Shown: positions 1,308 through 8,131 of the stretch, in pieces
How positions within the stretch are numbered: the first letter of the stretch is position 1
How the letters are laid out: every line of letters starts with the position of its first letter
DNA from: a virus
Lineage: Duplodnaviria; Heunggongvirae; Uroviricota; Caudoviricetes
Strand: one strand, 5' to 3'
Length of the DNA stretch: 33,164 nt
IMG/VR virus record: IMGVR_UViG_2534681774_000032
Location: 1-33,164 of that record
The notes under the pieces: model-generated
Told to the model about the DNA's origin: nothing
Database searches by the model: none
The model's input: only the letters and a program-made list of their open reading frames with translations
Program-made: the position numbers and the translations under genes

Positions 1308-3779
1308 TTAAAAATCAGCCTGACTCGGGAGCAGTTTTTGCCAGATGGCTGAAACGTATTTCGCCTGGTAACGTGCATCGTTCAGAGCGTTATGGCGTTC
1401 ACCTTCGAATGGAATAGTCGTTCTTGCGTCGAAATCCATCACCAGTCCCAGAGCAACCATCGTTCTTACATCGCGATCATTGGTGTAACGCCACGGGCAG
1501 GGGATCCCCTGCCGTTCATATGAACGGCGTAAAATCACGTTGTCGAAAGTTGCACCGTTACCCCAGACCTGAACAAAAAATTCACCGGAGTTTTCGTCGA
1601 TAAATTCCCGCAATTGTAACAGTGCATCATCTAACGGGATTTCATCGGTCATAATGGCAGATTGCGCTTCGCGTGATTGCTTAAGCCACCATTTAATGGT
1701 GTCCCGATCAATGACTCCGCCAGCAGTTTCCAGATCAATAGTCTTACTAAATTCCGGTCCCATATCTCCGGTTTGCGGATCGAAAAATATTGCACCTATT
1801 GAGATAATCGGGGCATCAGGATTTTTTCCCATGGTTTCAAGGTCGATCATTAGATGGTCACACGTCCTGCTGGTGGATGTGATAACGTGATGACCGTTCA
1901 CCGTAATTAAGGGATCTGCCGTCTCGCCAGTTTCACTATCGCTGGCGTGATCCTGAGCGCTACCAGCATTCTCCTTGTGTGGATGTTCAGCGCCTTCCAT
2001 TTCCTCCGGATCATTTTCCTGAACTTCAACCTGATTCTCTTCATCGAATGTTTCCTGGTATGTTGCGTCACCCATCACCGCGCCACAATCATGGCAGTTG
2101 CCACCACCGCTTTGACCGCAGGCGGTGCAGACTTTTTCCGGTTCCTGTTGCGCTACTGGCTCAGGTTGTTTCGTTTCTGGCTCGTTTTGTTGCGTATTTG
2201 GGCTGTTTTGTTCCGCTTTCTGGTCGTTCTGTTCCGATTCTTGCTGGTTCTGGTTTACAGAATCGCGGGTTTCCATCCCCTTTACCCATTTCGGATCATT
2301 CGGGTCGCTAATCCCTGCAACAAATTCTCCGCGAGAGGCAGCAAGCAACTTATCGGCGTCAGGCTGGCTGATATTGGCTGCCTGCATAATTTTGTTTACT
2401 TCGTCAGCGGTAACTTTTACCGGCTCTGGTTGTGCGGTCGTGTCAGATGCACCAGTATTTTGTTGTGAACCTGAGTATGTACTGTTTTTGCGGGCGAAAT
2501 ATTCTTCTTTCGTGATTTCAGTAGCCCCGGCAGCCAGTGCCTTATCCAGACCAGAAAGTTTGTTTGCGCGACCGTATTTTTCGCCATCCTTGTCGGTGAA
2601 GAGGAAGTAGAACGGCCCCTCACGCTCTACAGATGGTTCGACTTCCACTTTGCATTCGGTTTTTTCGTTGTCCGGAATTGCCGTTTCCACTGCATCAGTT
2701 TCTGGTACTGACGACGAGAGAGTATCAGTTGCGCTCTGATTTGTTCCTTCATCTTCAAACACGCCCTTTGTAGTCAGGTATTCAGTAATGTATTTGTTCA
2801 GTGCCACAGGGTCTTTGTGAATGTCGATCGGACGTTCACGGACAAGGCCAAAAATAGTCTGGCGGTCGTAGCGAAGGGCATCAGGCTGTTTGCGCATTGA
2901 TGTCGAGATACGCTTCCAGTCTTCGCGGTCGTTGTCGATAACTTCATTTTTTGCCCAGCGATGGATGCTGCCGTCAATGTTTCCGGCATCCACATCACCA
3001 GGCCAGAGAGCGTAGGCCAGTTCGTCATCCAGTGTTTTCCATGTCTGCTTGTATTCGCGATGAATGGCAGCAATGACCAGGCTGATTTTTCCTGTTGAAT
3101 TTTCAGTGTGCTGTTGATTGACTCTGGCGCGGGCGAGATCAACAACAGACGTGTATTTTCCGGTTTCCTTGCGTTCACCTTCGCGACGTTTTTTCCAGAT
3201 GCGCATCTCTGCCTGAATTTCGGGCCATTTGGCACCAGGCTTACATTTATGCTTAACCCACCCGATGGCATGCAGCTTAAGCTCCGGATACATGGCGTTA
3301 ACTTCTGGCATTTTCATCAACGCTTCAACGATATGTCCGTCGAATGTTGCCATGTCTTCCTGCAACAATTCCTGTGCGCTAATAACCATATCAACGGTGA
3401 TGTTTTCACATGTGTCGAACTTAACCATGACAGCGTTCTGTACTTCAGGGGCCAGCTTGTCAAAAGTGACGTTCATCGGATCGGATTCAGTCTCAACCGG
3501 GACAAAGGAAGCAGACTCCTCATCCCAGCGGTTTTCCTGCATATATTCAGCATCCCAGGAATCGAGGGCAGGGCGGGGTATGCCGGGTTTATCCTCACAG
3601 ACAATAAATTTATAAGCGCAGTCCTGAGCTGCAGGGAATTGCTCCAGAAATTGCCAATGAAATTTTGCGCGTGCGCGACGCTCATCACCAGCTTCAATGG
3701 CAGTGGCCACCGCAACAGCGCTATCTTCTTTTATGGCCTGTTCATCAGGAATAGCAGCGCAAATAAAGACTTTACTCAT
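1308..3779 (-). CDS. Prophage exonuclease: RecE-like N-terminal and central region fused to a C-terminal DEDDh-type 3'-5' exonuclease domain
   Basis: 823-aa ORF; central segment [28 protein letters not shown]...[17 protein letters not shown]...[10 protein letters not shown] matches my recollection of Rac RecE; C-terminus carries DnaQ-like motifs ([22 protein letters not shown]). Confidence 0.75.
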
Positions 3780-4248: not shown

Positions 4249-4423
4249 TATCGCGTCCTCAACAATGAATTTTGTGATGTGGTGCCTGGTGCCTCCAGGT
4301 GACGTTAACCAGTTAACAATTAACGCCGGATACAGAGAATCCACCCATAACACTGTTTTTGGTTTTAACTGTTCCGCGTGCGCTCAGCCGCATTCACCGC
4401 ATCACAAAATTCACTTTAAAAAC

Positions 4424-4475
4424 GGCGGCAGAGCAGTCACGGAGTAAAACTGATACCGCCAAACGTCACCAGAAA
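4424..4475 (-). ncRNA. dicF: DicF-like small RNA (about 52 nt, ends in a GC-rich hairpin plus U-run)
   Basis: Minus-strand sequence TTTCTGGTGACGTTTGGCGGTATCAGTTTTACTCCGTGACTGCTCTGCCGCCGTTTTT matches remembered DicF almost base for base; lies between the ydfC-like and dicB-like genes as in Qin; ends approximate. Confidence 0.55.
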
Positions 4476-5516: not shown

Positions 5517-5924
5517 TTATTTTATTGATTTGTTTTTACGTGCTTTAAGCATTTCTTCGAAGAGTTTATTGAAATTCTCTACTCTTGCGCGCATTTCAGA
5601 CAGTAAGGCTTCCTGCTCGGAGGAGGGAAGAGCATCGAATAATTCGATCAATTCTTTGTGGCTGGGAGTTAACTCGGTTTCCACATGAAGTTCTTGTGCT
5701 GGCACTGGTGCCTTGTCTTCGTCACCAAACATTAGCCATGTAGGCGAGCACTTCAGCGCATCAGCTAAAGCAAATAACCGCTTCCCGACCGGTTGGGTTT
5801 CGTCTCTTTCCCATTGTGAAATTGTGACGTGAGCTACCCCAGCGAGGCGTGCAGCTTCTCGTTGTGTTAGGCGTAATTCTTTTCGTCGTGCCAGAACTCG
5901 CTGGCCTAGGGTTCTTGTATCCAT
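5517..5924 (-). CDS. dicA: Prophage repressor, DicA-like XRE-family HTH protein (cI analogue)
   Basis: 135-aa ORF; N-terminal HTH LTQREAARLAGVAHVTISQWERDETQP; C-terminal CSPTWLMFGDEDK...EMRARVENFNKLFEEMLKAR resembles DicA; divergent from a Cro-like gene; flanked by operator palindromes. Confidence 0.85.
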   Translation of the reverse strand: MDTRTLGQRVLARRKELRLTQREAARLAGVAHVTISQWERDETQPVGKRLFALADALKCSPTWLMFGDEDKAPVPAQELHVETELTPSHKELIELFDALPSSEQEALLSEMRARVENFNKLFEEMLKARKNKSIK

Positions 5925-5926
5925 AG

Positions 5927-5991
5927 TTAGGTAATTCTAATTTTTCTTGACTTAGGTATCCCGCGCACATTACTGTTAGGAATATCTAACA
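5927..5991. promoter_or_regulatory. Right operator/promoter region (OR-like) with rightward promoter
   Basis: GTTAG-gtaatt-CTAA at 5926-5940 and perfect TGTTAG-gaatat-CTAACA at 5974-5991; candidate -35 TTGACT (5947-5952) and -10 TACTGT (5971-5976) overlap the operator; RBS AGAGGGGG precedes the cro-like start. Confidence 0.5.
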
Positions 5992-6004
5992 AGAGGGGGC
6001 TTTG

Positions 6005-6232
6005 ATGCTTAAAGTTGACGCAATTACTTTTTTTGGCAGCAAAACAAAACTTGCCAATGCCGCAGGAGTGAAACTGGCAAGTGTTGCTGCATGGGGGGAA
6101 CTGGTTCCTGAAGGTCGCGCGATGCGCCTGCAAGAGGCATCCGGCGGGGAACTTCAGTACGACCCCAAAGTTTATGACGAATATCGTAAGGCAAAGCGGG
6201 CGGGGCGGTTGAACAATGAAAATCACCCCTGA
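6005..6232 (+). CDS. dicC: Cro-like regulator, DicC-like
   Basis: 75-aa product from ATG 6005 (ORF track starts at TTG 6002); FGSKTKLANAAGVKLASVAAWGELVPEGRAMRLQEASGGELQYDPKVYDEYRK resembles DicC/YdaS; divergent from the repressor. Confidence 0.8.
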   Translation: MLKVDAITFFGSKTKLANAAGVKLASVAAWGELVPEGRAMRLQEASGGELQYDPKVYDEYRKAKRAGRLNNENHP

Positions 6233-6737
6233 ACAGGTTTGTGAGGCTCTGGATGCCTGGGTATGCCGACCAGGAATGACACAGGAGCAGGCGACGATAT
6301 TAATCACGGAAGCATTCTGGGCTCTGAAAGAACGCCCGAATATCGATGTTCAACGCGTCACGTTTAATGATGGCGAGGTTGATCAACGGGCGTTGGGCGT
6401 TAACCGGGTGAAGATATTCGAACGCTGGAAAGCTATCGACACCAGGGATAAGCGGGAAAAATTCACGGCGCTGATTCCGGCAATTATGGAGGCTATCCGG
6501 ATCAGCGATTTCAGGTTGTATTGTGAAATTACTGACGGAAAAAGCATTACGTACATGATCGCCGGGTTAAACAAAGAATATGGTGATGTGGTGGAGTCCG
6601 GGCTGCTTTTTGCGGATCCATCTGTTGTGGAACGTGAGACTGACGAGCTTATAGAAAAAGCTATTGCTTTCAAGCATGCGTATCGTCAGCAATACCAACA
6701 AAAAGCTGGATGGAATTATGAGCCTTCTTTTTGCTGA
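6216..6737 (+). CDS. Early-right regulator-like protein, possibly YdaT-like (cII position)
   Basis: 173-aa ORF overlapping the cro-like stop by 17 nt (translational coupling); family assignment from position and vague similarity only. Confidence 0.45.
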   Translation: MKITPEQVCEALDAWVCRPGMTQEQATILITEAFWALKERPNIDVQRVTFNDGEVDQRALGVNRVKIFERWKAIDTRDKREKFTALIPAIMEAIRISDFRLYCEITDGKSITYMIAGLNKEYGDVVESGLLFADPSVVERETDELIEKAIAFKHAYRQQYQQKAGWNYEPSFC

Positions 6738-7683
6738 ACGCCCACTGGTTATAAACACACAGCTTGCGATGAAGATTGGCTTAAATGAAGCCATTGTGTT
6801 GCAGCAGTTGCATTACTGGTTGAGAGATACCAGTTCCGGTATGGAATGTGACGGGGTTCGCTGGATTTATAACACAACAGAACAATGGCTGGAACAGTTC
6901 CCGTTCTGGTCAGAGTCAACGTTAAAACGCGCATTTGCAAGTCTGAAAACGCTGGGGCTTTTGCGTTGCGAAAAGCTCAACAAATCAAAGCGTGATATGA
7001 CTAATTTTTACACGATTAATTACGAGAGTGAGCTTTTAGATGGTGGCAAAGTGAGCGAATCCATCAGGTCAAAATGCGCCGCTCCATCGGGTCAAAATGA
7101 CACGATGGAAGAGGTCAAAATGGCACGCTCCATTGGTTCAAAACGACCCAATGTCATCGGGTCAAAATGGCCTGATGATCTTACAGAGAATACAACAGAG
7201 ATTACTACAGAGAATAAAAACACTTCTCGTCCGGAAGCTTCGCAACCGGACCCGCAGACGGCTGAACAGGATTTTTTAACCCGACACCCTGACGCGGTTG
7301 TGTTCAGTGCGAAAAAACGCCAGTGGGGAAGTCAGGAAGATTTGGCGTGCGCACAGTGGATCTGGGGACGAATCGTGAGTCTTTACGAGCAGGCTGCCAG
7401 CGATGATGGCGAGATCACGCGACCGAAAGAACCAAACTGGACCGCATGGGCCAATGACGTGCGCACAATGCGGATGCTGGATGGCAGAAGCCACAGACAA
7501 ATTTGCGAAATGTTTGGTCGGGTACAGCGAGATCCATTCTGGGTAAAAAACATCATGAGCCCGTCAAAGCTTCGCGAAAAATGGGACGACCTGGTCATCC
7601 GCCTGGGGCGTTCACCTGTACAGTGTTGTGTGAATCATATTTCTGAACCGGATACCGAAATTCCGCCTGGTTTCAGGGGATAA
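6718..7683 (+). CDS. Phage replication initiation protein (O-like), with internal origin iterons
   Basis: Likely start ATG 6718 (MSLLFAERPL...) within ORF 6664..7683; contains five 23-bp-periodic direct repeats followed by an AT-rich stretch, like lambda ori inside O; C-terminal region resembles DnaT-like primosome-interaction domains. Confidence 0.7.
   Translation: MSLLFAERPLVINTQLAMKIGLNEAIVLQQLHYWLRDTSSGMECDGVRWIYNTTEQWLEQFPFWSESTLKRAFASLKTLGLLRCEKLNKSKRDMTNFYTINYESELLDGGKVSESIRSKCAAPSGQNDTMEEVKMARSIGSKRPNVIGSKWPDDLTENTTEITTENKNTSRPEASQPDPQTAEQDFLTRHPDAVVFSAKKRQWGSQEDLACAQWIWGRIVSLYEQAASDDGEITRPKEPNWTAWANDVRTMRMLDGRSHRQICEMFGRVQRDPFWVKNIMSPSKLREKWDDLVIRLGRSPVQCCVNHISEPDTEIPPGFRG
7061..7169 (+). 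repeat. Replication origin iterons: five direct repeats CCATCRGGTCAAAATG at 23-bp spacing
   Basis: Repeat copies start at 7061, 7084, 7107, 7130 and 7154 (GGTCAAAATG core, one degenerate GGTTCAAAACG), followed by AT-rich ACAGAGAAT repeats to about 7230. Confidence 0.65.
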
Positions 7684-7723: not shown

Positions 7724-8131
7724 ATGGCAAAAGTATTTACACAGGAAGAGCGGGAAAAAATTAAAGGACAGGTGGTGGAACTCGTGCGCCAGAGCGGTCG
7801 TGAGACGTTACGGCAACTGGAAGCTAAAACAGGTGCGACAAGATATCTGATGAGCGTTCTTGCCAGAGAGCTGGTTGCCAGTGGTGATGTATATCACTCT
7901 GGCTATGGGGTGTTCCCGTCAGAACGGGCTCGTAAGGACTGGCAAAACGCCCGCAAAAAACTCTCGAGGGCAAAGGTGAAGAAACCTGTTGTGGTTGATC
8001 CGGGCCTTATCTGGACATTACCCGACGGAGAAATACGCCGCTACGACAGGCGTATGAACATAATCTGTCGCGAGTGCCGGAAGAGCGAAGTTATGCAGCG
8101 TGTATTGGCGTTCTATCAGGGATATGCCTAG
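7724..8131 (+). CDS. Hypothetical phage protein (135 aa), possible DNA-binding
   Basis: Clean ORF with phage-typical GC content just before the AT-rich island; no family recognised. Confidence 0.5.
   Translation: MAKVFTQEEREKIKGQVVELVRQSGRETLRQLEAKTGATRYLMSVLARELVASGDVYHSGYGVFPSERARKDWQNARKKLSRAKVKKPVVVDPGLIWTLPDGEIRRYDRRMNIICRECRKSEVMQRVLAFYQGYA

What the first reader, a model, noticed from the sequence alone, without database searches (positions are those of the whole stretch)
7061..7230. Replication origin embedded in the initiator gene: five iterons at 23-bp periodicity plus AT-rich repeats
Five direct repeats with a GGTCAAAATG core occur at 7061, 7084, 7107, 7130 and 7154 inside the O-like coding sequence, followed by an AT-rich segment with ACAGAGAAT-type repeats. 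This is the lambda ori layout and pinpoints the origin without any external data. The repeats also impose a repeated peptide motif on the protein linker.
Basis: seen in the sequence. Interest (0 to 1): 0.4.

Follow-up and report, generated by a model that had tools for sequence, protein, structure and literature searches.

The report
Phage replication origin inside initiator gene
The repeats are real and almost certainly the replication origin of an E. coli lambda-like prophage, sitting inside its own initiator gene as in phage lambda; this is an ordinary kind of element, though its AT-rich 12-base repeats turn out to be conserved in phages of very distant bacteria.

Summary
Five 23-nt direct repeats start at 7062, 7085, 7108, 7131 and 7155. 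A degenerate sixth lies at 7039-7061. Three 12-nt ACAGAGAnTACw repeats follow at 7183-7218 (GC 29%). All lie in the linker of a 321-aa O-like initiator gene (6718-7683).

The origin interpretation is supported by computation only:
- The repeats are read in all three frames, and three have dyad symmetry (GGTCA-AAA-TGACC).
- In 76 close relatives, diversity here lacks the third-codon-position excess seen in the flanking domains.
- The C-domain is homologous to lambda O (E 3e-27), and the offset in the gene matches lambda.
- 68% of 76 distant homologues have repeats with a 21-25-bp period at the same place, against 0.6% of control windows. Their sequences differ by lineage and the half-sites co-vary.
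- The 12-mer array recurs across phyla, is constrained at the DNA level, and is nearly always preceded by such iterons.

It differs from lambda in three ways. The N-domain belongs to another winged-helix family. No P, DnaC-like or DnaB gene follows. The protein ends in the C-terminal tail of host DnaT.

Verdict: a new member of a known kind. No replication or binding experiment exists.

The parts
6718..7683 (+). O-like replication initiator gene (321 aa); the origin is embedded in its middle
   Evidence: ORF list. PHROG 391 'replication initiation O-like', E 7.5e-95. No Pfam or NCBIfam model matches. RefSeq annotates it as 'hypothetical protein' at 6019-6984 of L003.
6718..7062 (+). N-terminal winged-helix domain (aa 1-115), the presumed iteron-binding domain
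   Evidence: AF2 model has pLDDT 84 and a helix-turn-helix-plus-wing topology. The best PDB fold matches are RepA_N plasmid initiator N-domains and a Rep-DNA complex (4PQL, 5KBJ), at E 4e-3 and TM 0.53. 10,392 representative homologues exist. The domain is not related to the lambda O N-domain (hhalign probability 0.6%).
7039..7061 (+). Degenerate upstream iteron ('iteron 0'), GGTGGCAAAGTGAGC
   Evidence: TRF starts the array at 7047, giving 5.3 copies. In Klebsiella, Trabulsiella and Edwardsiella relatives the aligned position is a good dyad, e.g. GAGGTCAAAGTGACC.
7062..7084 (+). Iteron 1, CATCAGGTCAAAATGCGCCGCTC
7085..7107 (+). Iteron 2, CATCGGGTCAAAATGACACGATG; a near-perfect 27-bp palindrome spanning 7083-7109
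   Evidence: direct-repeat family D1, and inverted repeat I2 with 12-nt arms 92% complementary and 3 nt apart.
7108..7130 (+). Iteron 3, GAAGAGGTCAAAATGGCACGCTC
7131..7153 (+). Iteron 4, CATTGGTTCAAAACGACCCAATG (diverged core, palindromic)
   Evidence: D1, and I8 with 9-nt arms 89% complementary.
7155..7177 (+). Iteron 5, CATCGGGTCAAAATGGCCTGATG (palindromic), closest to the AT-rich block
   Evidence: It is nearly invariant in 76 relatives.
7177..7180 (.). GATC (Dam) site at the junction between iteron 5 and the 12-mers
   Evidence: The same GATCTTACAGAGAAT junction is present in the Klebsiella phage and the Stx phage.
7183..7218 (+). AT-rich array of three 12-mers (ACAGAGAnTACw), the presumed DNA unwinding element
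   Evidence: It is nearly invariant among 76 relatives (third-codon-position diversity, pi3, of 0.014). It is 97.5% identical to the same block in an Stx2a phage whose iterons and C-domain are different. It is conserved across phyla with third-codon positions fixed.
7300..7599 (+). C-terminal domain homologous to the lambda O C-domain (aa ~195-294)
   Evidence: BLASTP against lambda O: 34% identity, E 3e-27. It is exchanged as a separate module; the recombination junction is at ~7216.
7627..7680 (+). C-terminal tail CVNHISEPDTEIPPGFRG, nearly identical to the last 18 residues of host DnaT
   Evidence: Match to DnaT chains 2ru8, 6aep and 9zbt_D, with 15 of 18 residues identical to E. coli DnaT.
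7724..8131 (+). DUF977 / 'Ren-like' small winged-helix protein in the position where lambda has P; role unknown
   Evidence: Pfam DUF977, E 1.7e-29. PHROG 142. A small wHTH, PerC or DUF977 gene follows all 16 tail-bearing initiators examined.
5517..6737 (.). Immunity and early region upstream: CI-like repressor (5517-5924, minus strand), Cro-like (6002-6232, plus), CII-like/YdaT-family (6216-6737, plus). The initiator gene overlaps the end of the last, so it is probably co-transcribed with it.
   Evidence: No consensus promoter was detected by the simple scan, so transcription from a pR-like promoter is inferred from gene order only.

Best explanation
This is the vegetative replication origin of a lambdoid (Qin/DicB-type) E. 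coli prophage, embedded in the linker-coding part of its own initiator gene.

Proposed mechanism:
1. Dimers of the initiator's N-terminal winged-helix domain bind the five (perhaps six) iterons. Each iteron is a 13-bp dyad, GGTCA-AAA-TGACC, and they are spaced 23 bp apart. Together they build an O-some-like complex. This step is inferred.
2. The distortion opens the adjacent purine-asymmetric AT-rich array of three ACAGAGAnTACw 12-mers. The base-by-base conservation of the 12-mers suggests they are recognised in a sequence-specific way, probably as single strands by the initiator. This step is inferred.
3. Host DnaB is then loaded without a phage-encoded loader. The lambda-O-like C-domain and a C-terminal peptide copied from host DnaT are the candidate recruiting surfaces. 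This step is speculative.

What is shown here: the repeats, their symmetry, their position in the gene, the DNA-level constraint, the conservation of the layout across the family, the domain homologies, and the absence of a loader gene.
For: 1. The repeats are far beyond chance and confined to 7039-7218.
2. They are DNA-level repeats. The units fall in all three reading phases. Iterons 2, 4 and 5 are palindromes.
3. In 76 close relatives, third-codon-position diversity is 0.138 in the N-domain and 0.177 in the C-domain, about 7-8 times that of positions 1 and 2. In the iterons it is 0.043, equal to positions 1 and 2 (0.044). In the AT-rich block it is 0.014.
4. The layout matches lambda. The C-domain is homologous to lambda O (E 3e-27). 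The iterons and AT-rich block sit at the same offset. Purine asymmetry and GC are the same as in lambda's AT-rich region: 0.69 and 0.29 here, 0.69 and 0.27 in lambda. That asymmetry is a described feature of ori-lambda (PMC5043065).
5. The layout holds across the family. 68% of 76 distant homologous loci have at least 3 copies at a 21-25-bp period in the same place, against 0.6% of 1492 control windows. The consensus is NNN-CA-WWW-TG-N'N'N'. The arms differ between lineages yet remain complementary: 0.80 observed against 0.53 shuffled, and none of 2000 shuffles reached the observed value. This is what binding by a dimer with lineage-specific specificity predicts.
6. The N-domain, iterons and 12-mers are inherited as one module and the C-domain as another, with the junction at ~7216.
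7. The 12-mer array occurs in at least 3 copies in 40 of 75 distant loci and in 0 of 1416 control windows. Third-codon positions are fixed while a second-codon position is free. An unbiased scan of viral contigs for two adjacent 12-mers returned almost only initiator-like genes. 83% of them have 21-25-bp periodic repeats just upstream, against 0.7% of controls.
8. The isolated phage HannyBb carries this gene, about 94% identical, as its only annotated replication gene. Phages PhiR42_1 and mEp460_ev081 carry the same gene.
9. The N-domain model is a winged helix whose nearest solved folds are iteron-binding plasmid initiators.
Against: There is no experimental evidence of binding, unwinding or replication for this element or any close relative. 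I found no paper on it.

The fold match to RepA_N is weak (E 4e-3, TM 0.53) and amounts to a generic winged helix.

No consensus promoter was found upstream by the simple scan, so transcriptional activation as in lambda is untested.

Low diversity in the 12-mer block could partly reflect recent horizontal spread of that segment.

The family-wide statistics use related sequences, so the counts are not independent events.

This particular prophage has an IS66 element in its terminase gene, so the origin may rarely or never fire here.

The helicase-recruitment step rests on an 18-residue similarity (database E 0.08) and on an association confounded by lineage.
Confidence: 0.85

Rival explanations
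1. The sites are initiator-binding sites, but their role is regulatory (autorepression, copy control, or exclusion of related phages). Replication would start elsewhere.
For: Iteron arrays in plasmids and in lambda also mediate control and inhibition phenotypes (PMC5043065; the title and abstract of PMC3349717). Nothing computed here shows unwinding at 7183-7218.
Against: The iterons are always immediately followed by the conserved AT-rich 12-mer array. The layout and offset equal those of ori-lambda. No other repeat-plus-AT-rich candidate appeared in the repeat scans: TRF over the whole window, the repeat finder over 6950-7300 only. Regulatory roles would add to an origin role rather than replace it.
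Confidence: 0.07
2. It is a protein-level repeat: a repetitive flexible linker in the initiator with no function in cis.
For: The region encodes a low-complexity linker. The 12-mers are always in the same frame (54 of 54) and encode T-E-x-T. Natural variants lacking 31 linker residues exist.
Against: The 23-nt units are read in three different frames and give unrelated peptides. There is no excess of third-position variation. Third-codon positions of the 12-mers are invariant while a second position is free. The dyad symmetry with co-varying arms has no protein-level explanation.
Confidence: 0.03
3. It is an origin-type sequence that is a relic here. The prophage is defective and the element no longer functions in this genome.
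For: An IS66-family element splits the terminase large-subunit gene. Related prophages include variants with four iterons deleted.
Against: The initiator ORF is intact. The iterons and 12-mers match those of isolated phages. Replication does not require packaging genes. This rival concerns activity in this strain, not the identity of the element.
Confidence: 0.05

Closest known systems
ori-lambda within gene O of phage lambda (and the six-iteron origins of Stx phages 933W and P27)
   Same: Both have an array of dyad-symmetric iterons about 20-24 bp apart in the middle of the initiator gene. A strand-asymmetric AT-rich block follows on the C-terminal side, and the offset in the gene is the same. 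The initiator C-domain is homologous (E 3e-27).; PMC7466680; PMC5043065.
   Different: The N-terminal DNA-binding domain is a different family: no Pfam Phage_rep_O hit and hhalign probability 0.6%. The iteron sequence differs (GGTCAAAATGACC here, ATCCCTCAAAACGAGGGAT in lambda). The AT-rich block is an ordered array of 12-mers. There is no P gene. The initiator carries a DnaT-like tail that lambda O lacks.
'O' gene origin of Stx2a-converting phage Stx2_14040 (LC567818)
   Same: The ACAGAGAnTACw block is 97.5% identical, including the GATC junction, and lies directly after a 23-bp-period iteron array inside the initiator gene. The N-domain is a remote homologue (hhalign 95.9%).
   Different: Its iterons are different (GGGAAACCC type). 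Its C-domain is different, and it is followed by DnaB-like helicase genes.
RepA_N-family plasmid initiators (e.g. PDB 4PQL, 5KBJ)
   Same: They have a winged-helix N-domain that binds iterons, and they are the best structural matches to the modelled N-domain. From memory, and not tested here, RepA_N replicons also carry their origin inside the rep coding sequence.
   Different: There is no sequence-level relationship: no Pfam hit and only 15-17% identity in the fold alignment. The fold match is weak (TM about 0.5).
13-mer DNA unwinding elements of oriC and RK2
   Same: They are a short array of tandem AT-rich repeats next to initiator sites, and their exact sequence matters, not just AT content (PMC5043065). 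This is an analogy for the 12-mers.
   Different: The sequence and period are different. The 12-mers lie inside a coding region. Binding of any protein to them is untested.

Membership tests
Lambda-type origin embedded in the initiator (O) gene | Several direct repeats (iterons) with internal dyad symmetry, spaced about two helical turns apart | tested here: met
   There are five units at 23, 23, 23, 24 bp plus one degenerate unit. Iterons 2, 4 and 5 are palindromic.
Lambda-type origin embedded in the initiator (O) gene | Iterons located inside the initiator gene, between its N- and C-terminal domains | tested here: met
   They occupy nt 345-460 of a 966-nt gene; in lambda they occupy nt 349-433 of 900.
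Lambda-type origin embedded in the initiator (O) gene | Strand-asymmetric AT-rich region immediately after the last iteron | tested here: met
   The segment 7181-7222 has GC 0.29 and 69% purines on the top strand. Lambda has 0.27 and 69%.
Lambda-type origin embedded in the initiator (O) gene | Initiator binds the iterons, and the fragment supports initiator-dependent replication | not testable with these tools
   This needs EMSA or footprinting and a plasmid replication assay. Indirect support comes from co-varying half-sites and from co-inheritance of the N-domain with the iterons.
Lambda O protein family | N-terminal domain of the Phage_rep_O type | tested here: not met
   No Pfam family matched at E <= 0.01. 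hhalign of the N-domain profile against lambda O gave probability 0.6%.
Lambda O protein family | C-terminal domain homologous to lambda O | tested here: met
   BLASTP gave 34% identity over 148 aa, E 3e-27.
Lambda O/P replication module | Helicase-loader gene (P, DnaC-like) or helicase gene directly downstream of the initiator | tested here: not met
   The next genes are DUF977 and SIR2-family. Phage HannyBb has no annotated helicase, loader or primase anywhere.
RepA_N plasmid initiators | Sequence membership (Pfam RepA_N) and the RepA_N N-domain fold | tested here: inconclusive
   There is no Pfam hit. The fold search puts 4PQL and 5KBJ on top, but at E 4e-3 and TM 0.53, among many generic winged-helix regulators.

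The most novel reading that the evidence does not exclude

(a) The tandem 12-mer ACAGAGAnTACw is a sequence-specific unwinding or loading element. It marks a whole class of phage origins, from Enterobacteria to Bacillota, across several winged-helix initiator subfamilies, and always lies just after iterons with a period of about 23 bp.

(b) Initiators that lack a phage-encoded helicase loader end in the flexible C-terminal tail of host DnaT (SEPDxxIPPGFRG). They would use it to capture whatever host partner that tail engages, and so load DnaB at the phage origin. If so, that would also assign a function to a DnaT tail for which the reviews I read give no partner.
Probability: 0.3. Interest if true: 0.6.

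Novelty: new member of a known kind. Interest (0 to 1): 0.35.

Why it matters
For this genome, the result pins the origin of a very common E. coli prophage type to about 180 bp. A region at least 80% covered by this gene is present in 1849 of 5426 complete genomes. It also names a protein that RefSeq calls 'hypothetical' and that no Pfam or NCBIfam model covers.

More generally, the pair of signatures could be used to annotate origins in thousands of phage and prophage genomes. The signatures are a 21-25-bp periodic NNN-CA-WWW-TG-NNN dyad followed by ACAGAGAnTACw 12-mers.

The DnaT-tail observation offers a testable handle on two questions: how loader-less phages recruit DnaB, and what the DnaT tail does.

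The basic principle, an iteron origin inside the initiator gene, has been textbook knowledge since lambda.

Tried and rejected
- Inverted iteron-like site at 7267-7284 (I1 and I3). I rejected it as part of the origin. The same sequence is present in phage PhiR49_1, which shares only the C-domain module and has unrelated 15-bp-period iterons. It therefore belongs to the C-module and its resemblance is probably chance.
- DnaA boxes. There is none within 6900-7400, and the window-wide count is not above chance.
- RNA element. There is no Rfam family in the region.
- Promoter or terminator inside the origin. Nothing was found above shuffle expectation. The scan also failed to find the expected pR-like promoter, so it is uninformative about transcriptional activation.
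- Sequence search of PDB with the whole protein. There was no informative hit except the DnaT tail.
- Literature. No paper contained the 12-mer strings, the PPGFRG tail or 'initiator-solo'. The Weigel and Seitz 2006 review of phage replication modules, which I recall as the most likely place for prior description, is not in the library.
- Residue-to-base specificity between the N-domain and the iteron arms. I did not try to correlate them, because 38 phylogenetically related sequences are too few for a meaningful test.
Full report
CONTEXT. The window is a lambdoid prophage of Escherichia coli. The segment 6700-7700 is 100% identical to the chromosomes of E. coli O111:H2 strain 12A, FDAARGOS_1059 and 602687. 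At lower identity, 1849 of 5426 complete E. coli genomes hold at least 80% of it. The gene order around the finding is integrase, exonuclease, dicB, DicF, ydfC, ydfB, a CI-like repressor (5517-5924, minus strand), a Cro-like gene (6002-6232), a CII-like/YdaT-family gene (6216-6737), the gene of interest (6718-7683), DUF977 (7724-8131), a SIR2-family gene (8500-9531), then hokD/sok and rem. This is a Qin/DicB-type prophage.

THE OBSERVATION. The repeat finder reports five copies of a 23-nt unit starting at 7062, 7085, 7108, 7131 and 7155, with spacing 23, 23, 23, 24. TRF reports the same array as 5.3 copies of period 23 from 7047. The exact 10-mer GGTCAAAATG occurs at 7067, 7090, 7113 and 7160 and nowhere else on either strand of the 33 kb. 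About 0.03 copies per strand are expected from base composition. The fourth unit has a diverged core, GGTTCAAAACG.

Three units are themselves palindromes. Iteron 2 is TCCATCGGGTCA-AAA-TGACACGATGGA, with 12-nt arms 92% complementary. Iteron 4 has arms CATTGGTTC and GACCCAATG. Iteron 5 is also palindromic.

A degenerate sixth unit lies at 7039-7061. In Klebsiella, Trabulsiella and Edwardsiella relatives the aligned position is a good dyad.

Directly after iteron 5 and a GATC site (7177-7180) come three 12-nt units: ACAGAGAATACA, ACAGAGATTACT and ACAGAGAATAAA (7183-7218). GC is 0.29 and the top strand is 69% purine.

THE REPEATS ACT AS DNA, NOT AS PROTEIN. Because 23 is not a multiple of 3, the five units start in phases 2, 1, 0, 2 and 2 of the ORF. 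Their cores are translated as RSKCA, GQNDT, EVKMA, GSKRP and GSKWP.

I collected 76 colinear close relatives from IMG/VR and GenBank, 92-100% identical and comprising 47 distinct sequences. In the two domain-coding parts they show the usual signature of protein-level selection. Third-position diversity is 0.138 in the N-domain and 0.177 in the C-domain, against 0.019 and 0.022 at positions 1 and 2. In the iteron segment, third-position diversity is 0.043 and positions 1 and 2 give 0.044. In the AT-rich block the values are 0.014 and 0.006. Codon periodicity of variation thus disappears, and silent-site variation drops three- to ten-fold, exactly over the repeats. The polymorphisms that do occur avoid the TCAAAATG centres, and the 12-mer block is nearly invariant.

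THE GENE. The ORF 6718-7683 (321 aa) matches PHROG 391, 'replication initiation O-like', at E 7.5e-95. It matches no Pfam or NCBIfam model, and RefSeq calls it hypothetical.

Its C-terminal part (aa ~147-294) aligns with lambda O at 34% identity, E 3e-27. Its N-terminal 115 residues do not: hhalign of the family profile against lambda O gives probability 0.6%.

An AlphaFold2 model of the N-domain (pLDDT 84) is a winged helix. The best PDB fold matches are the N-domains of RepA_N plasmid initiators and a Rep-DNA complex (4PQL, 5KBJ). The match is weak, at E 4e-3 and TM 0.53, and sits among many generic winged-helix regulators.

The N-domain family is large, with 10,392 representatives at E <= 1e-3. 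It occurs in phages of Klebsiella, Pantoea, Erwinia, Pseudomonas, Staphylococcus, Bacillus, Listeria and Vibrio, where it is annotated as replication initiator or DnaD-like loader.

COMPARISON WITH LAMBDA. GenBank annotates four 18-bp iterons in lambda at 39034, 39054, 39078 and 39101, inside gene O (38686-39585). That is nt 349-433 of the gene, followed by the AT-rich region. Here the iterons occupy nt 345-460 and the 12-mers nt 465-502 of the gene. Lambda's AT-rich block has GC 0.27 and 69% purines on the top strand, against 0.29 and 69% here. That strand asymmetry is a described property of ori-lambda (PMC5043065). The literature describes the lambdoid origin as iterons plus an AT-rich tract in the middle of O. 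Lambda has four iterons and the Stx phages six, and O binds the iterons as dimers (PMC7466680; PMC5043065).

FAMILY-WIDE TEST. I aligned diverse N-domains (A1) and used the alignment to fetch 80 loci from one-genome-per-species contigs. These came from Escherichia, Pantoea, Xenorhabdus, Yersinia, Proteus, Pseudomonas, Bacillus, Anoxybacillus, Limosilactobacillus and others.

In a 200-bp window starting 300 bp into the gene, 68% of 76 loci have at least 3 copies of some 9-mer (at most 1 mismatch) chained at a 21-25-bp period. Only 0.6% of 1492 control windows from the same loci do.

The repeat sequences differ between lineages but share one architecture, a dyad NNN-CA-WWW-TG-N'N'N'. Examples are GGTCAAAATGACC, GGGCAAATTGCCC, GGACAATTTGTCC, GTGCAAAATGCAC, GTTCAAAATGAAC and GGCCAAAATGGCC. 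The three arm positions next to the centre are complementary in 80% of cases, against 53% when left and right arms are shuffled among loci. None of 2000 shuffles reached the observed value. Concerted change of both half-sites is what a dimeric, lineage-specific DNA-binding protein predicts.

Mosaicism agrees with this. Klebsiella phages share the N-domain, iterons and 12-mers (window 6763-7213, about 78% identity) but have an unrelated C-domain. E. coli phages such as PhiR49_1 share only the C-domain (from about 7216) and have another N-domain with its own 15-bp-period iterons. The binding domain and its sites thus travel together.

THE 12-MERS. The block 7177-7216 is 97.5% identical to a block in the 'O' gene of Stx2a phage Stx2_14040. 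That gene has different iterons (GGGAAACCC type) and a different C-domain, and DnaB-like helicase genes follow it. Its N-domain is a remote homologue of the present family (hhalign 95.9%).

Among the distant loci, 40 of 75 have at least 3 ACAGAGA units (at most 1 mismatch) at exactly 12-bp spacing just after the iterons. None of 1416 control windows does. This includes Bacillota hosts.

In 133 units from 44 distinct arrays, position 3 is A in 100%, position 6 is G in 96% and position 9 is T in 93%. All three are third-codon positions. Position 8, a second-codon position, is free, and the first base carries most of the variation. Positions 1-7 are biased by the search pattern; positions 8-12 are not. 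The array is always in the same frame (54 of 54).

An unbiased scan of IMG/VR for two adjacent 12-mers returned at least 120 stretches, of which 80 loci were listed and analysed. Of the 77 with enough upstream sequence, 53 are preceded within 750 bp by this N-domain. Most of the rest are preceded by other initiator-like ORFs of 250-350 aa that share an 'xxYW' motif, with the 12-mers at residue ~145-190. 83% have at least 3 repeats of 21-25-bp period in the 200 bp upstream, against 0.7% of controls.

The 12-mer array is therefore a specific, DNA-level-constrained companion of these iteron arrays. I found no paper containing these strings. By analogy with the sequence-specific 13-mers of oriC and RK2 (PMC5043065) and with lambda O binding single-stranded AT-rich DNA (PMC7466680), I propose it is the unwinding element and is recognised in a sequence-specific way. 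This is an inference.

HELICASE LOADING. No P, DnaC-like or DnaB-like gene follows the initiator here. The isolated phage HannyBb carries the same gene at 94% identity as its only annotated replication gene.

The protein's last 18 residues, CVNHISEPDTEIPPGFRG, match the extreme C-terminus of DnaT. E. coli DnaT ends DVNTVSEPDSQIPPGFRG; the matching PDB chains are 2ru8, 9zbt_D and 6aep. [quoted passage not shown] The 2026 preprimosome structures leave the recruitment of DnaB/DnaC by DnaT unexplained (PMC13377028).

Related tails (IPxGF[RK]G) end other loader-less modules. Lambda O, which has P, lacks the tail. Among the distant loci, none of the 16 tail-bearing initiators is followed by a loader or helicase. 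The next gene is always a 128-144-aa winged-helix, PerC or DUF977 protein. About 17 of 49 tail-less initiators are followed by IstB/DnaC-like, lambda P, DnaB or G39P genes (Fisher p = 0.007). All tail-bearing loci are Enterobacterales, so this association is confounded by lineage. I treat the idea that the tail substitutes for a phage loader as a hypothesis. The conserved small downstream protein is an alternative candidate partner.

OTHER CHECKS. There is no DnaA box, no Rfam family and no promoter- or terminator-like site above chance in the origin. The inverted iteron-like site at 7267-7284 belongs to the C-domain module and is probably coincidental. Variants of 290 aa (P0018-P0023) carry an in-frame 93-bp deletion running exactly from iteron 1 to iteron 5, which leaves one iteron. 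The spacing sum 23+23+23+24 = 93 makes such unit deletions frame-preserving. This prophage has an IS66-family element in its terminase gene, so it is probably not a viable phage even though the replication module looks intact.

VERDICT. It is a new member of a known kind. It has the same architecture and C-domain as lambda, a different DNA-binding domain and iteron sequence, an ordered 12-mer AT-rich element, and no phage-encoded loader. Interest in the finding itself is modest. The family-wide 12-mer signature and the DnaT-like tail are the parts that might repay experiments.

Noticed in passing
window 7627-7680: The initiator ends in CVNHISEPDTEIPPGFRG, nearly identical to the last 18 residues of host DnaT. 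Related IPxGF[RK]G tails end other initiators that lack a neighbouring helicase-loader gene, and lambda O lacks the tail. This may be a host-mimicking recruitment peptide.
   Followed up: partly
window 7062-7154 (proteins P0018-P0023): Natural 290-aa variants of the initiator carry an in-frame 93-bp deletion running exactly from iteron 1 to iteron 5, which leaves a single iteron. These prophages are probably origin-defective. The unit spacings sum to a multiple of 3.
   Followed up: partly
window 21030-23365: An IS66-family element (TnpA, TnpB and an ISEc22-type transposase, on the minus strand) splits the terminase large-subunit gene (fragments at about 20482-21114 and 23364-25067). The prophage is therefore probably packaging-defective.
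   Followed up: partly
window 8500-9531: A SIR2-family gene (Pfam SIR2_2, E 1e-5; no PHROG match) sits between the replication module and hokD/sok. In phage HannyBb this position holds unrelated genes. It may be an anti-phage defence cargo gene.
   Followed up: no
window 7267-7284: There is an inverted iteron-like sequence, CAGGATTTTTTAACCCGA, 78% complementary to iteron 5. It is also present in PhiR49_1, which has unrelated iterons, so it is probably a chance resemblance within the C-domain module.
   Followed up: yes
L165 1340-1470 (phage PhiR49_1): A different initiator N-domain, joined to the same lambda-O-like C-domain, has its own array of roughly 15-bp-period repeats (GTCAAAATCTGAC type) and no ACAGAGA 12-mers. 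This is a second origin type sharing the C-module.
   Followed up: no
L132-L162 (Bacillota homologues): Gram-positive members of the N-domain family end in acidic-aromatic tails (EEDFRFDDET, EEDFDLND, EDFNLDD) instead of the DnaT-like tail. This may be another short recruitment motif.
   Followed up: no
window 4423-4474 (-), 9734-9908 (+), 14854-15044 (+), 14529-14778 (+): Rfam finds DicF sRNA, the sok antitoxin RNA and sRNA STnc100. There are also three tRNA genes: Met/Ile-CAT, Arg-TCG and Arg-TCT.
   Followed up: no
window 2146-2252: Imperfect 21-bp tandem repeats (about 74-77% matches) lie inside the large exonuclease gene on the minus strand. They would encode a 7-residue protein repeat.
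   Followed up: no
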